This document shows positions 9,301 to 18,300 of a stretch of DNA of 22,049 nucleotides, piece by piece. Each line of letters opens with the position of its first letter. Positions within the stretch are counted from its first letter, which is position 1. This DNA comes from a virus. Taxonomy: Duplodnaviria > Heunggongvirae > Uroviricota > Caudoviricetes. Position numbers: made by a program. The DNA lies in IMG/VR virus record IMGVR_UViG_3300048620_000004, one strand, 5' to 3'.

Positions 9301-12300
9301 CTCTGGCTGATATGCTCAAGGTCAGTGACAGTCAGGCCATCACTGCAATTCATTCCGAGATAACGCGCTGTCATAGAGGGCTCCCGGTTGTGCCGCCGCT
9401 GTCGCCGGGGTGTTTATGGGTATGCAGTACCTTACCGTTTGATGAGAGTTCACCGCCGGTGTGTTCAATGTTGCCGCGCATCGTCCCGCCCTTCTGCACT
9501 TCCAGCGTGCCGGTAATCAGCCTGTTGGTGCAAACCACCTCCGGTGTGTCCAGGGTGACGCGGGTTGATGCTTTCACCATGACCACCGGCACCGTGGCAG
9601 TAACAGAATCAGAAGCCGTCACGCTGGCCGTTTTAATTCCGCTTACCGTGAGTGCACTGGTTTCGGGTTCATACTCAATCACCGCCCCGTCAGGGAAACG
9701 GATATGCAGGGCATCCGCCGACGCAGACGGCGCGGGGTTATCGCCGGAATAAATCCCCGGCAGAACGAACGCCGTGTCGAGTTCACCGCCCACAGCCAGA
9801 ATCAGCACCTGTTCCCCCACGGAAGGTGCCCACCATGTGCGCGAACGTCCGGCACGATGGGTCAGCCACTGAAGCCAGTCAGTGCACATGCCACCGGTCT
9901 GCACACGGCAGCGACCGGCTTTAAGGTTGGTTTCGACGACAAGGCCGGTACGAATCATGTTGCGCAGTGCGCGCGCGAGTTCCTGAATATTTGCGAGAGT
10001 GTTCATGCGTGTGAGATTGCACAATATATAAAAGTTATGCTATCTGGATTCATTTGTAGAACGACCATACAACATTCGAGGAGAGCGTAATGTTCAGTGA
10101 TAATGTGACTAATGCGTGGTGGTTTATCTCTTTGTATCTATTTTTATTAATAGCATTAACATTTATTACCTTTGGTAAAAGTAATCTTATGAGGTTTATT
10201 GCACATCATTTCAATTTTGAGTATTCAGACAGAAAGTTAAAAATGCTCGACAAAAAATGGCGCGACATTCAACTATTTAAAATAATTAACGGAATCAATG
10301 TATCAGGCATCGAAGATGTGAGAATGATACAGCAGGGGCTGATTGATGGAAAACTAAAAACATCGTATTTTTTTCTTACTCGCTTCTGGGGTGACATAAC
10401 AAAACCACCACACATAATTAAAACAATAATTGTAATTCTGTCCAGCATTATTTATATTCTCTTCGCATGTTATATACACAACAAACAATCCGCTATAGTA
10501 AGAGATGCCATAGGCATACCATATAAAAATATGATGTACTATGTTTATAGTGACAAAGTTCTTTTATCCTTCAACAATAAAACAGTTGAATTCAATAAAA
10601 CTTATAGCCTTGCCGATTGCAAGAGGCTACGAAACATATTTATAAAAGACACACTTCCTGAGATCGCCTGCAATAAGCTCTTACAGCTAAACGAGGAGGA
10701 CTCGGAATGGTTAAGTCAGGAAATTAAAGATAATAACAGCCAAAAAAAAGCATTATTAATAATATCCCTCATCTATTTCATTTCAGGTCTGGTTATATTC
10801 CTGTCATATACAAAATTCCTTTACGCCAATAAGAAGGTTGTAGAATACAAAGCATCAAATAAAAATCACTCATAAGCCTCTAAACATTGAGCGACCAGCA
10901 TGGCCGCTCAATGTTTAATTGCGCATCAGCCTCTGCCTGGATAAAACTAACGCTCAAGGTGAGCCAGGATAATCTCTTCAATCATCTGCACATCCTCACC
11001 GGTAAAGCCGAGCAGAGGACGCGCCGGATAATCAATTTTCTTACCGTCTTTCCGGGTTTCTTCCGACAGACCGAACTGATGCACACTGGCGATTTTCGGC
11101 GACTTTCCCAGCAGGATTTCAGCCGCTTTGTGCTGGATTTTCTGGTGTTCGGTAATGCGTTTCTGGAAAAGCGTTACAGCACCACCGGTAAGGTCATCAG
11201 ACTGGAAACCTCACCGGCAAAATATACCCGCCGTGGCGTGGAGGAGGATGTTTACTGGTGGGTGCCGTCCTTCAACGAACCGACAGCCTTCGCGCCCGGT
11301 TCCGTGTTTCACCTGCTGGAGCCCGATATTAATCAGGAGCTGTACGGCCTGCCGGAATATCTCAGCGCCCTTAACTCTGCCTGGCTGAATGAGTCGGCCA
11401 CGCTGTTCCGCCGCAAGTATTACGAAAACGGCGCACATGCCGGATACATCATGTACGTCACTGATGCCGTGCAGGATCGCAACGATATCGAAATGCTTCG
11501 CGAAAACATGGTGAAGTCGAAAGGCCGCAACAACTTTAAAAACCTGTTTCTCTATGCCCCACAGGGAAAAGCCGACGGCATTAAAATTATCCCGCTCAGT
11601 GAAGTGGCGACGAAGGACGATTTTTTTAATATCAAAAAAGCCAGTGCCGCAGACCTGCTGGACGCGCACCGCATCCCCTTTCAGTTGATGGGCGGCAAGC
11701 CGGAGAACGTCGGGTCGCTGGGTGATATTGAGAAAGTGGCAAAGGTCTTTGTCCGCAATGAGCTTATCCCGTTACAGGACAGGATCCGTGAGATAAACGG
11801 CTGGCTCGGTCAGGAGGTCATCCGCTTTAAAAACTACTCACTGGACACTGACAACGGCTGAACATCGCCGCCTGCGGGCGGCTTTTTTACACCCCGTCAT
11901 CACGCCCTCACACGCTCACCACCGCACAAAACACCCCGCAGACACACCAACGCCCCGGCGCACAATCTAAACGCCATCACGACGCGCTGAGACGCTAAAA
12001 AATAAAATCAGCACCACCGCCAGCGCGCAGTGCTTTCCCCGCCTCGCCCGCCCGCTTCATGGGGCGGTTTTAATGCGGTTGAATTTTATCGAAAGTCACG
12101 TCACACAAAACCTTCCCTTCACTAAATAGACTCATTATCCACATGCAATCTAATTCAAAAAAATGCATGTATAGTATTAAAGGTCATCAATTAAACCTAA
12201 AGGCAAACCATCCTCACCAACCGAGCTATAATGAGCGATAATATTCGAAAGTTCACCAGTAGAAAACGAATTAGGCAAATCATTATCAACTAATATAATC

Positions 12301-15300: not shown

Positions 15301-18300
15301 TTTTTGCTACAATTTATCCAGCGCCTATTCAATGTATCAGTCGCTTCACTTAACAATCCAAGATCTACTAACTGAGCATTTGAAGATACCATTGAAGTTA
15401 TATTCGCTAATTTAGCACCAAAGTGAGGGACTGCTAACGAAATGAATCCAATTATATTAGATTGTTCCTCATGCTCAACTTTTTTTAGAATTAGATTTTT
15501 TGATATTAACCCCCCCATACTATGGGCGATTATTATAATTCGAGAGTAATCACTTAGTGTTACTCTAATCTCAGTATACAATAACTCAGCTATTTCATCA
15601 GTTGGTAAATTTCTCTCTAACTTATTTTTCTTAAAGAAAATACGAGCCAAGAATCCTGACGTTTTAGCATACGTTTGTGTGAATTTAGTAAAATAATTGA
15701 AACATGCAATATCAAATACGTTGCTAATATCTTCATCTTCTGCTAATAGTTTTGGAAATGAAATTTCTTTATTAAAGTTCCATGTTTCCAAACCACCATT
15801 TAATCCATGTACAAATAGTATCAGGCTATCTTTTTTCTCGTGGCTTATCCATTCAACCATGCTCATATGCTTTTCTGCCGTGTATAAAAATTAAACCATA
15901 ACAAACAATTCCTCAACAATAACATATTGTTACCCCGTTCAACCGTTTTTTCAACTACCACTCACGCTGTCTGTCAAAAAAGTCGATATCGGTATCAAAT
16001 TTAAAACGCTTATGCCCAAAATCCAAAACAGCTCCGCGAGCGAGAGCTTCAAGCTCCCAATAACTAGCCTGAATGTCACTTTGTGCAAGAAGAACCTTAA
16101 TTTTCGGGATAGTCTTTCTCTCCTGCCTTGTCAACCGGGCGGATGGGGCAGGAAAGTAGCTTCGACCATTGAAAGGAGTAAAGCTCTGCTGTGAACGATT
16201 ACTGCATTTCAGTTCATTACTCAATAAGTCTCTAAGTACCTTCATAATGCCTGGCTCGGTCCAACTTAGAATCCCTTCATCTATAAAATTTAACACCGCT
16301 GCAGCATGCTCAGTCGGTGTGGGAGCCGATAACGAAGTATCACCACCGGTGAGCTTTCCACAGTTATTGACAGGACTCCGAGGCGCGGCGATGCCGCTTT
16401 TTAAAGTCAAAGGCTCCACGACCGGAACTTTCGGCACAATGCGCCAGTCCGTCGTTCTGGTGATATGAATATGACGCGCGCCGAGATGCGGCGCGTAAAT
16501 GCCGACCACTCTCTCGACTTCTTCCTCGTACTCGTTAACTTCATCCGACGGGCTACGGGCGACTCTGACAGTCTGGCAATCGCGCGGAACATTTGCCCCA
16601 CCCTGCGCACTGATATACAACGCAAAATCGCCACTGTCTGCGGCAGCGCGTGCAGCCTCGACGCGTTCGTCAAACTCATCAGCAATGCTGACGCCGCGAG
16701 GCAATTTGCGTAGTTCACGGTAAGCCCCCATTGTCGGCAGACCAACCGTTTTAAATTGCGGGATGCGCCACGTTGACGCCCATGCAGTAACAGCCGCGGC
16801 AGTATCTTTCAGAGGTCTGCCGGTATCGTTATCGAGCTGACCATCCAGTGCATAGCCGTCGATGTTTTTTGAGATGTATTTCGCGATATACCCCGCAGCA
16901 CCGCCCCGATTAAGGTGTTTTGCCTGAAAACGGTTTCGCGCGGCTCCTCTTTCGTCGCCATCCTCTTTGAGCGCATAGCGACGCATGATTTCGATAATCT
17001 GGTTACGCTGGCGCGGATTACAAAAAAGCATCATATGCCAGTGCGGCGTTCCGTCGTGATGTGGCTCGACGACACGCAAACCGTAGACCTGTAAATCATT
17101 ATCCTTGAATGCCGTGCGCATCAGGCTCCAGATACGGCAGAGATAACGCTGCGCATCCTTTGGATTAAATGCCTCATCGTTCCAGCCGTGATTTAGCTGG
17201 ACGGTTTTACTTTCGCCTTTTCCAACCTGACGTGTCGGGTGATACTTTGACGGCGCGGTCAGCGTGATAAACATCCCCACATCACCCTCTGCTGCGGCGT
17301 AACGCTCAATACCGGCAATGGTGTTCATCAGCTCCATCCGGCGAATTTCAGGATTAGAAATACTGCCCATCACCTTACTGATAAGGTCGATGCGCTCGCC
17401 GGTTTCCCTGTTTTCGAGATCACACGATTTAAGAAATTCCAGATTTGCCTGGCGGCGTGCACGCACATCACGAATGGCATGTTTACTGGCATAAGGAGAA
17501 CGGTCTTTATTGACCTCCCCGACAGCAATCAGTAACGCCTCATGCCAGCGCATACGCTGGCCTTTGAGCTGATGAGTCCACCACTCATCGTTAAACAGAC
17601 GGGCAATGGCAGAATATGCCTGCCTCGTGGTCATCTGTCCTTTACGGTATTTTTTCCAGTAAAGCGGGGAAATATTGAAAGCACGTGCAGCGCCAGCAAC
17701 ATGACCATAGAGGTGAGCCTGCGCCTCATCCGTAAACAGCGATTCTTTTTCGCCATGTGCATCCACCCAGGCATCGCTGAGTTCCTCATACATCATGAAA
17801 AGCTGCGATGAGATACGGGCGGCAAACTTTTTCAGCTCCTTGTCATTCATTCCCGGCAGGCGCGCATAGTGGTCACGCTCTGCCAGAAACAGCAACGACG
17901 CGTCGGTGTTCATTTCATGGCGCTGATTCACACGCTCAATGCGCGGCCATAAACGACGCTGAAAAGTGGATGTGAGGAAATAAAACCCGTGCACCGGGCT
18001 TTTATTGCGCCGGATGTAGTCATAGTGTGAAGTAAACAGCGAGCGCAAAAAGTAAGGCAGGCGGTTAATCGTGGATAAAACACCTTGCACCTGACGCATC
18101 TCGTCACGTGTAAGGGGTCTTTCGCGCCCGACGGCCTCGCGTGGCGCGTTCCATGCATAAGCACCGGTAAACGTCTTACCGGTGCCTGCGGCAAATGCTG
18201 ACGGAGGGACAAAACGCCCGGAGGCTTTAACGGCCATATGAGCCAAAAGCCTCTGAACAACGCTTGCTGAGTTGCTCAACCTGCGCGTTTAAATCAGCAA

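What the first reader, a model, noticed from the sequence alone, without database searches (positions are those of the whole stretch)
12177..15866. Three-gene operon (alpha/beta-hydrolase, small protein, SMC/Rad50-like ABC ATPase) at the P2 tin/old hotspot: candidate Lamassu-type defence system
Seen in sequence: three co-directional, translationally coupled genes (overlaps of 14 and 4 nt) in an AT-rich block between replication gene A and cos, where P2 carries tin and old. Gene 1 has alpha/beta-hydrolase catalytic motifs plus a helical C-terminal domain. Gene 3 has Walker A, signature-like and Walker B motifs separated by a long coiled coil with a central CxxC hook. Established knowledge: the tin/old locus of P2-like phages is a recognised hotspot for anti-phage systems, and Lamassu / ABC three-component systems pair an SMC-like ATPase with a small middle protein and a variable effector, including hydrolase/lipase types. 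Inference: an abortive-infection-type system whose hydrolase effector is controlled by the SMC-like sensor. Whether this hydrolase variant belongs to a described subtype cannot be settled without a search.
Basis: partly seen in the sequence, partly recalled or inferred. Interest (0 to 1): 0.8.

Follow-up and report, generated by a model that had tools for sequence, protein, structure and literature searches.

The report
Lipase-type Lamassu defence operon in P2 prophage
The three genes are a complete, textbook Lamassu anti-phage system with a lipase-like killing enzyme, carried as cargo in the defective P2-like prophage of E. coli B; standard defence-system databases already recognise this kind, so it is ordinary.

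Summary
Three co-directional minus-strand genes (15866..14643, 14656..14144, 14147..12177; overlaps 14 and 4 nt; GC 0.33) lie between P2 replication gene A and an exact P2 cos site (12030-12048), where P2 carries orf91-tin-old.

- **Family hits:** PADLOC models match end to end: LmuA 1.3e-108, LmuC 2.6e-52, LmuB 1.2e-233.
- **LmuA:** Pfam gives a DUF676/PGAP1-type alpha/beta hydrolase plus ABC-3C CTD8. The Ser116/Asp201/His226 triad is invariant in 110 homologues.
- **LmuC:** Pfam MC4.
- **LmuB:** the model (pLDDT 86) has a Rad50-like head, coiled coil and CPIC zinc hook. Its best structural matches are solved Lamassu LmuB chains.

The operon is under purifying selection (dN/dS 0.07-0.21). It sits at the same hotspot in P2 prophages of E. 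coli O157, Citrobacter and Serratia, and in other islands in Pseudomonas and Klebsiella.

A lipase-type Lamassu from E. coli was validated against lambda-vir in 2025. Its residue numbering suggests a different homologue.

Verdict: an already known kind with no experimental data for this copy. Side notes: lmuC is frameshifted in REL606, and the whole prophage is absent from BL21(DE3).

The parts
14643..15866 (-). lmuA: effector, 407 aa. The N-terminal part is an alpha/beta-hydrolase (lipase/esterase-like, DUF676/PGAP1 type, about residues 1-255) with oxyanion HG (H20-G21), nucleophile elbow A-H-S116-M-G-G, D201 and H226. The C-terminal part is the helical ABC-3C CTD8 domain (265-389).
   Evidence: PADLOC LmuA PDLC03851, 1.3e-108, residues 3-406. 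Pfam CTD8 9.2e-36, DUF676 2.8e-09, PGAP1 3.1e-07. H20, G21, S116, D201 and H226 are invariant in 110 homologues at 42-94% identity. In the AF2 model the hydrolase core is confident and the CTD is helical but low-confidence. Foldseek top hits are monoacylglycerol lipases and serine hydrolases. The profile-vs-PDB search hits Legionella RavL 'putative lipase' at 2.5e-06, then LPLA2, PGAP1 and LCAT.
14144..14656 (-). lmuC: small middle component, 170 aa (ABC-3C MC4). Its start overlaps the lmuA stop by 14 nt.
   Evidence: PADLOC LmuC PDLC03869, 2.6e-52, residues 3-169. Pfam MC4 4.5e-27. An MC4 gene sits between lmuA and lmuB in Citrobacter, Serratia and Pseudomonas loci. dN/dS is 0.08-0.21.
12177..14147 (-). 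lmuB: SMC/Rad50-like ABC ATPase sensor, 656 aa (655 from the second Met). Features: Walker A G33-S40 (K39), Q-loop Q166, coiled-coil arms about 199-326 and 358-498, zinc hook C337-P-I-C340, signature S527-G-G529, and a deviant Walker B LLLIFD560-T561.
   Evidence: PADLOC LmuB PDLC03862, 1.2e-233, residues 2-656. These residues are invariant in 53 homologues. The AF2 model has mean pLDDT 85.9 with head / coiled coil / hook / coiled coil / head. Foldseek top hits are Lamassu LmuB chains 9UXH_F 3.4e-22, 9HQX_B, 9HQU_A and 9NYG_B, then Rad50, SMC and JetC. The profile-vs-PDB search hits 9HQU_A at 1e-11.
15926..15954 (-). Candidate sigma-70-type promoter (TTGAAA, 17 nt spacer, AACAAT) in the 88-nt gap between the stop of gene A and the lmuA start. 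Weak consensus match only.
   Evidence: Pattern scan, 9 of 12 matches. The region had fewer promoter-like sites than its shuffles, so this is a lead and not evidence. Sequence read.
12030..12048 (-). P2 cos cohesive-end 19-mer. It marks the right-hand boundary of the cargo hotspot (context, not part of the system).
   Evidence: Exact match with 0 expected. It corresponds to cosR of NC_001895.

Best explanation
This is a type II ('short', zinc-hook-bearing) Lamassu / ABC-three-component anti-phage system of the lipase-effector subtype, arranged lmuA-lmuC-lmuB. It is carried as accessory cargo in the tin/old hotspot of the defective P2-like prophage of E. coli B.

The likely mechanism is inferred by homology to solved Lamassu complexes:
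1. A LmuB dimer, folded at its coiled coils and joined at the CPIC zinc hook, works with LmuC to hold the CTD8 domain of LmuA and keep the hydrolase inactive.
2. LmuB senses DNA ends or replication intermediates of an invading phage or plasmid. This step needs ATP binding (K39) and head engagement (signature S527).
3. The complex then opens and LmuA is released and oligomerises.
4. The Ser116/Asp201/His226 esterase attacks a lipid substrate, most plausibly membrane phospholipid, and kills or arrests the cell before phage release (abortive infection).

Shown here: the gene content, domains, catalytic residues, fold, location, conservation and selection. Inferred: the trigger, the sequestration-and-release step, the substrate and the phenotype.
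For: - Full-length PADLOC LmuA, LmuC and LmuB hits.
- Pfam CTD8 and MC4.
- An invariant catalytic triad and invariant ATPase and hook motifs.
- The LmuB model is closest to solved Lamassu LmuB.
- The hydrolase is nearest to lipid-acting esterases.
- The same three-gene order occurs in P2 prophages of O157, Citrobacter and Serratia, next to a reverse transcriptase in Pseudomonas, and with lmuA near conjugation genes at a contig end in Klebsiella.
- The three genes diverge in step, and dN/dS is 0.07-0.21.
- The hydrolase domain is also found at the N-terminus of NACHT proteins on Bacillus plasmids, as expected of a portable effector module.
- Literature: Lamassu defence requires LmuA, LmuB ATPase and LmuC and behaves as abortive infection. 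The sequestration, release and oligomerisation model, and the note that CTD8/CTD9 lipase LmuAs are predicted to oligomerise, are. E. coli 'Lamassu Ec-Lipase' protects against lambda-vir, and its Walker A and catalytic His mutants lose defence.
Against: - There are no experimental data for this copy.
- The validated Ec-Lipase has K42/H215, whereas this family has K38-40 and H223-227. It is therefore probably another homologue, and its identity to ours is unknown.
- The LmuA CTD model is low-confidence and no solved LmuA CTD was hit by sequence profile, so the sequestration interface is untested.
- Walker B is D-T, not the D-Q described for other LmuBs, so ATPase behaviour may differ.
- The substrate is unknown.
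- The promoter evidence is weak, and the AT-rich operon may be silenced in its native context.
- From general knowledge, E. coli B is the classical permissive host of T1-T7, so native expression does not block those phages.
Confidence: 0.85

Rival explanations
1. The operon is an intact-looking but functionally silent passenger. It sits in a decaying prophage and is either transcriptionally silenced (AT-rich, H-NS-type silencing) or no longer selected in the B lineage, so it currently contributes nothing to the host.
For: - The prophage is defective: the portal is truncated, most head and lysis genes are lost, and D and FII are fragments.
- REL606 carries a 2-nt insertion that frameshifts lmuC.
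- BL21(DE3) has lost the whole prophage.
- GC is 0.33 and the promoter match is weak.
Against: - All three ORFs are intact in the window and in 11 other B-type genomes at 100% identity.
- dN/dS is 0.11-0.21 against the O157 copy, which lies in what looks like an intact P2 prophage.
- Silencing would not change what the system is.
Confidence: 0.25
2. The system acts mainly against plasmids or other mobile DNA, such as P4-type satellites or competing prophages, rather than lytic phages. This would resemble V. cholerae DdmABC.
For: - Lamassu/DdmABC acts on both plasmids and phages, and LmuB senses DNA structures rather than phage proteins.
- The system is carried by a temperate phage, where excluding competitors benefits the phage.
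Against: - The one tested E. coli lipase-type Lamassu protected against lambda-vir.
- Nothing in the sequence discriminates between targets.
Confidence: 0.2
3. It is a DNA-repair SbcC/Rad50-like module (some homologues are named 'exonuclease SbcC') with an unrelated neighbouring esterase, and not a defence system.
For: Source names such as 'exonuclease SbcC' or 'Rad50' on LmuB homologues, and weak NCBIfam/Pfam SMC and Rad50 hits.
Against: - There is no SbcD/Mre11 nuclease partner.
- All SMC and Rad50 hits are far below curated cut-offs, whereas Lamassu-specific models score 775 bits.
- The esterase carries the ABC-3C CTD8 and always co-occurs and co-diverges with MC4 and the ATPase.
- The location is a phage accessory hotspot.
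Confidence: 0.02

Closest known systems
Lamassu Ec-Lipase (E. coli short Lamassu with lipase LmuA and zinc hook; Haudiquet et al., PNAS 2025, PMC12663957)
   Same: Same species, the same three-component layout, a lipase-type LmuA with a catalytic His, and a LmuB with a Walker A Lys and a zinc hook. It has been shown to protect against lambda-vir and to be toxic when over-expressed.
   Different: The residue numbering differs: K42/H215 there against K39 (K38 from the second Met) and H226 here. All 120 LmuB and 120 LmuA homologues examined cluster at K38-40 and H223-227, so it is probably a different homologue, possibly the CTD9 lipase class.
Salmonella enterica LmuACB (PDB 9HQU/9HQX) and V. cholerae DdmABC / Lamassu Vc-Cap4 (PDB 9NY5/9NYG)
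   Same: The LmuB fold and domain order match (Foldseek 2e-19 to 2e-16; profile hit 1e-11). Both have an LmuC middle component and an LmuA built as N-terminal effector plus C-terminal domain. These structures are the source of the mechanistic model used here.
   Different: Their effectors are PD-(D/E)xK / Cap4 nucleases, not an alpha/beta-hydrolase. LmuB identity is only 14-16%. Walker B is D-Q there and D-T here. Vc-Cap4 has lost the zinc hook, whereas ours keeps CPIC. Their CTD and MC classes were not tested here: no solved LmuA or LmuC chain was hit by sequence, so a difference from CTD8 and MC4 is only presumed.
ABC-three-component (ABC-3C) systems of Krishnan, Burroughs and Aravind 2020 (Pfam CTD1-12 and MC1-8 families)
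   Same: It fits the definition directly: ABC ATPase plus middle component (MC4, PF20290) plus effector with CTD8 (PF20284). RefSeq already names the proteins this way.
   Different: None. This is the computational definition of the same family as Lamassu.
P2 tin and old (the cargo at this position in phage P2)
   Same: Same genomic slot between gene A and cos, and the same role as lysogenic-conversion anti-phage cargo. Old is also an ABC/AAA-type ATPase.
   Different: There is no sequence relationship. tin/old are transcribed opposite to gene A, whereas this operon is co-directional with it. The number of components and the effector chemistry also differ.

Membership tests
Lamassu (type II / ABC-3C) | LmuB: SMC/Rad50-like ABC ATPase with Walker A, signature motif and Walker B split by a coiled coil | tested here: met
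   PADLOC LmuB 1.2e-233, full length. Invariant G33..K39-S40, Q166, S527-G-G, D560. The AF2 model shows heads plus an antiparallel coiled coil, pLDDT 85.9. Best Foldseek hits are solved LmuB chains.
Lamassu (type II / ABC-3C) | LmuC: small middle-component protein encoded between or next to lmuA and lmuB | tested here: met
   PADLOC LmuC 2.6e-52. Pfam MC4 4.5e-27. The same position is kept in four other genera.
Lamassu (type II / ABC-3C) | LmuA: N-terminal effector domain fused to an ABC-3C C-terminal domain (CTD1-12) | tested here: met
   PADLOC LmuA 1.3e-108. Pfam DUF676/PGAP1 hydrolase at residues 10-208 plus CTD8 at 265-389, 9.2e-36.
Lamassu (type II / ABC-3C) | Co-directional, tightly linked operon inherited as a unit | tested here: met
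   Overlaps of 14 and 4 nt. The three proteins are 91/91/92% identical to the Citrobacter copies, 63/52/64% to Serratia and 49/44/51% to Pseudomonas.
Lamassu (type II / ABC-3C) | Deviant Walker B lacking the catalytic Glu (D-Q in described LmuBs) | tested here: inconclusive
   The Glu is absent, as in the family, but the residue is Thr (D560-T561, invariant in 53 homologues) where S. enterica LmuB has Gln (alignment; description). This is the same trend with a different residue.
Lamassu (type II / ABC-3C) | Confers anti-phage or anti-plasmid defence that depends on all three components | not testable with these tools
   Only literature on relatives is available.
Short Lamassu, lipase-effector subtype with zinc hook | CxxC zinc hook at the coiled-coil apex | tested here: met
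   C337-P338-I-C340 is invariant. It lies at the apex between helices 270-326 and 358-476 of the model.
Short Lamassu, lipase-effector subtype with zinc hook | LmuA effector is a Ser-Asp-His alpha/beta-hydrolase of lipase type | tested here: met
   S116, D201 and H226 are invariant in 110 sequences. Fold hits are to monoacylglycerol lipases. Profile hits are to RavL lipase, LPLA2, PGAP1 and LCAT. Enzyme activity itself was not tested.
SbcCD / Mre11-Rad50 DNA repair complex | Rad50/SbcC ATPase paired with an Mre11/SbcD phosphoesterase nuclease | tested here: not met
   There is no SbcD/Mre11-like gene in the operon or its flanks. Rad50 and SMC models score far below their cut-offs.

The most novel reading that the evidence does not exclude
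The E. coli B lineage may hold a natural allelic series of a native lipase-type Lamassu: intact in E. coli B / ATCC 11303, lmuC frameshifted in REL606, and the whole prophage absent in BL21(DE3). The system could therefore account for unexplained differences among B strains in plasmid maintenance or sensitivity to temperate phages. In addition, this CTD8/MC4 clade has an invariant D-T Walker B, so it may work as a pure ATP-binding switch that releases a membrane-attacking lipase. That effector-activation step has not been resolved for any Lamassu.
Probability: 0.15. Interest if true: 0.45.

Novelty: already known. Interest (0 to 1): 0.2.

Why it matters
The main value is correct annotation. 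The cargo of the E. coli B P2-like prophage at the tin/old slot is a complete lipase-type Lamassu system, which existing tools and RefSeq names already recognise.

There is modest practical interest because common laboratory B strains differ at this locus: it is intact in B, lmuC is frameshifted in REL606, and it is absent in BL21(DE3). That could matter for phage or plasmid work in those strains.

How a Lamassu lipase effector is activated and what it hydrolyses is still open, and a native E. coli copy is a convenient model. The locus itself adds no new kind of system.

Tried and rejected
- **Single-sequence PDB searches.** phmmer of LmuA, LmuC and LmuB against PDB gave no hits. Profiles were needed.
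- **Is this the validated Ec-Lipase?** The paper's text gives only K42A and H215A, and no supplement is held. The numbering does not fit this family, so the question is left open.
- **Unreadable preprint.** 10.64898/2026.09.05.749240 ('H-NS silences antiviral immunity...') mentions Lamassu, BL21 and P2-like in the search index but could not be opened. Nothing is taken from it.
- **Lamassu + REL606 literature search:** no papers.
- **Deposited phage genomes.** No record holds the operon by nucleotide search or LmuB by tblastn. It is seen only in prophages.
- **RNA families and repeats.** The Rfam scan of the whole window found nothing. The repeat scan of 11800-16100 found only short chance-level matches in AT-rich DNA.
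- **Plus-strand ORFs inside the operon** (up to 91 aa) have no support and were dismissed.
- **SbcC/Rad50 repair reading:** rejected (see rival explanations).
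Full report
**Where the window comes from.** The 4-kb region around the finding is 100% identical to several E. coli B genomes (ATCC 11303, AS19, 'B' and drug-resistant derivatives) and 99.9% identical to REL606. RefSeq annotation of REL606 shows a P2-like prophage integrated between yegQ and yegR. 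The prophage is visibly defective:
- the portal is truncated;
- only a fragment of the virion morphogenesis gene remains;
- the terminase, capsid and lysis genes are missing;
- D and the tail tube gene are fragments.

**The observation.**
- *Genes.* Three minus-strand ORFs occupy 15866..14643 (407 aa), 14656..14144 (170 aa) and 14147..12177 (656 aa), overlapping by 14 and 4 nt. Most LmuB homologues start at the second Met, which would make the second overlap 1 nt. Either way the genes are translationally coupled.
- *Composition.* GC is 0.33 across the operon against about 0.5 in the flanks.
- *Boundaries.* Replication gene A ends at 15955. The exact P2 cohesive-end 19-mer lies at 12030-12048.
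- *Comparison with P2.* In P2 (NC_001895) the interval between A and cosR holds orf91, tin and old. A direct alignment shows that P2 homology stops at window 12076 on the cos side and resumes only at 16274. The swapped segment therefore includes the last ~320 nt of gene A.

**What the proteins are.**
- *Family models.* PADLOC models hit all three proteins end to end: LmuA PDLC03851 at 1.3e-108, LmuC PDLC03869 at 2.6e-52, and LmuB PDLC03862 at 1.2e-233.
- *LmuA domains.* Pfam splits LmuA into a DUF676/PGAP1/Abhydrolase-type domain (about residues 10-208) and CTD8 of ABC-three-component systems (residues 265-389, 9.2e-36). Pfam calls the middle protein MC4 (4.5e-27). NCBIfam has no specific model, although RefSeq names the proteins 'ABC-three component system protein' and 'middle component 4'.
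- *LmuA catalytic residues.* In an alignment of 110 LmuA homologues at 42-94% identity, the oxyanion H20-G21, nucleophile S116, D201 and H226 are invariant.
- *LmuA structure.* The AF2 model has a confident alpha/beta-hydrolase core, two low-confidence lid-like segments (63-87 and 151-170), and a helical but poorly determined C-terminal domain. Foldseek finds monoacylglycerol lipases and other serine hydrolases. A sequence profile finds Legionella RavL 'putative lipase', then LPLA2, PGAP1 and LCAT. All of these are lipid-acting esterases, so a lipid substrate is the best guess. It is only a guess.
- *LmuB residues.* 53 homologues share an invariant Walker A (G33..K39-S40), Q166, C337-P-x-C340, S527-G-G529 and D560-T561.
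- *LmuB structure.* The AF2 model (pLDDT 85.9) runs head, ascending helices 199-326, hook, descending helix 358-498, head. Its best structural matches are solved Lamassu LmuB chains: 9UXH_F at 3.4e-22, then 9HQX, 9HQU and 9NYG. Rad50, SMC and JetC follow. A sequence profile also reaches 9HQU_A at 1e-11.
- *Walker B.* Published LmuBs have a deviant D-Q Walker B and are very poor ATPases. This clade has D-T at the aligned position. This is a small difference of uncertain meaning.

**Conservation and context.**
- *In E. coli.* The operon occurs in 96 of 5,426 complete genomes, always once and always chromosomal.
- *O157.* In strain 644-PT8 it lies at the same slot of an apparently complete P2 prophage at the same attachment site, at 98% nucleotide identity over the shared prophage segment (97.3% over the 4-kb operon region).
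- *Citrobacter and Serratia.* Copies in Citrobacter freundii (91% aa identity) and Serratia marcescens (63%) also lie between gene A and the portal gene of P2-like prophages.
- *Pseudomonas and Klebsiella.* A Pseudomonas chlororaphis copy (49%) is chromosomal, next to a reverse-transcriptase gene. In Klebsiella the lmuA homologue (55%) sits next to conjugation genes at the end of a contig, so the rest of that operon was not seen.
- *Co-divergence and selection.* The three genes diverge in step. dN/dS is 0.07-0.08 against Citrobacter and 0.11-0.21 against O157.
- *Deposited phages.* None of the 50,697 phage records holds the operon or LmuB.
- *Effector portability.* The hydrolase domain alone is about 31% identical to the N-terminal part of NACHT-domain proteins on Bacillus plasmids, as expected of a portable defence effector.

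**How it most likely works.** This is by analogy with solved Lamassu complexes. Two folded LmuB protomers and LmuC sequester the LmuA C-terminal domain near the zinc hook. DNA binding and head engagement release LmuA, which oligomerises into the active form. The authors of that model note that lipase LmuAs of the CTD8 and CTD9 classes are predicted to form dimers or larger rings. Lamassu systems need the ATPase, the effector and LmuC, and they behave as abortive infection. An E. coli lipase-type Lamassu protects against lambda-vir, loses defence with the Walker A or catalytic His mutation, and is toxic when over-expressed unless the lipase is inactivated. I therefore expect this operon to sense phage or plasmid DNA structures and to kill the cell through lipid hydrolysis. 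None of this was tested for this copy.

**Relation to the validated Ec-Lipase.** The mutated residues there are K42 and H215. In this family the Walker A Lys is at 38-40 and the catalytic His at 223-227 in nearly all of 240 homologues. It is therefore probably a different homologue.

**Novelty.** The family, the lipase subtype, the CTD8/MC4 classes and the P2 hotspot location are all described. Millman et al. note that Lamassu members had been found in prophage hotspots. Standard HMM libraries from 2023 detect this operon with near-maximal scores. It is an already known kind. What remains unknown is the substrate and the activation of the lipase effector.

**Side observations.**
- *REL606.* It differs from the window by a CA insertion at 14507 and a G>A change at 14561, both in lmuC. 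RefSeq consequently splits lmuC into two ORFs.
- *BL21(DE3).* yegQ lies directly next to yegR, so the whole prophage, Lamassu included, is absent. No BL21 genome is among the 96 carriers.
- *Other AT-rich cargo blocks.* Two more exist in the window, and one carries a long tetranucleotide repeat. Details are in the items noticed in passing.

Noticed in passing
window 3263-3389 (within ORF 3109..3420, +), next to ORF 3392..4510: A perfect (CAGC) x 31.8 tetranucleotide repeat lies inside a small ORF that overlaps the start of a family-2 glycosyltransferase gene (Pfam Glycos_transf_2, 1.6e-28). Both sit in the AT-rich block at 2500-4500, between the tail fibre and tail sheath genes (the P2 Z/fun position). 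REL606 has 96 nt (24 units) fewer. It looks like a contingency (phase-variable) repeat controlling a lysogenic-conversion glycosyltransferase.
   Followed up: partly
window 10090-10875 (+): A 261-aa ORF in an AT-rich block (GC about 0.33) lies between baseplate gene V and the remnant of gene S (the P2 orf30 position). It has hydrophobic segments, no Pfam family above the gathering cut-off (one weak sub-threshold DUF6535 match) and no PADLOC match. RefSeq calls it 'hypothetical protein'. It may be another accessory or defence cargo gene.
   Followed up: partly
window 14507 and 14561 (lmuC); also 17943 and 20950: REL606 differs from the window by a CA insertion at 14507, which frameshifts lmuC into two ORFs, and by three G>A changes on the plus strand, one of them also in lmuC. 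Lamassu is therefore probably inactive in REL606 unless the 2009 reference carries an error.
   Followed up: partly
L005 (BL21(DE3) NC_012971.2 2062001-2088000): BL21(DE3) has yegQ immediately followed by yegR, so the whole P2-like prophage, including the Lamassu operon, is missing. None of the 96 E. coli genomes carrying lmuC is a BL21.
   Followed up: yes
window 15955-16273 (3' end of gene A): Homology to P2 gene A (97%) stops at 16274, about 320 nt before the stop codon. The C-terminal ~106 residues of the replication endonuclease therefore belong to the swapped segment rather than to the conserved P2 backbone.
   Followed up: no
window 84-2216, 10887-11861 and flanks (via L001): The prophage is defective. 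The portal gene lacks its N-terminus, only a fragment of the virion morphogenesis gene remains, P-O-N-M-L-X-Y-K-lysis-R are absent, and D and the tail tube gene are fragments.
   Followed up: partly
Bacillus plasmids NZ_CP115305.1 149129-149860 and NZ_CP072692.1 306604-307326: The LmuA hydrolase domain (residues 13-261) is about 31% identical to the N-terminal region of annotated NACHT-domain proteins. This suggests the same lipase-like effector module is reused in NLR-type defence proteins.
   Followed up: no
L006 10843-12384 (Pseudomonas chlororaphis): The Pseudomonas homologue of the operon sits next to a 513-aa reverse-transcriptase (RVT_1) gene, possibly a retron or DRT-type neighbour in a defence island.
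   Followed up: no
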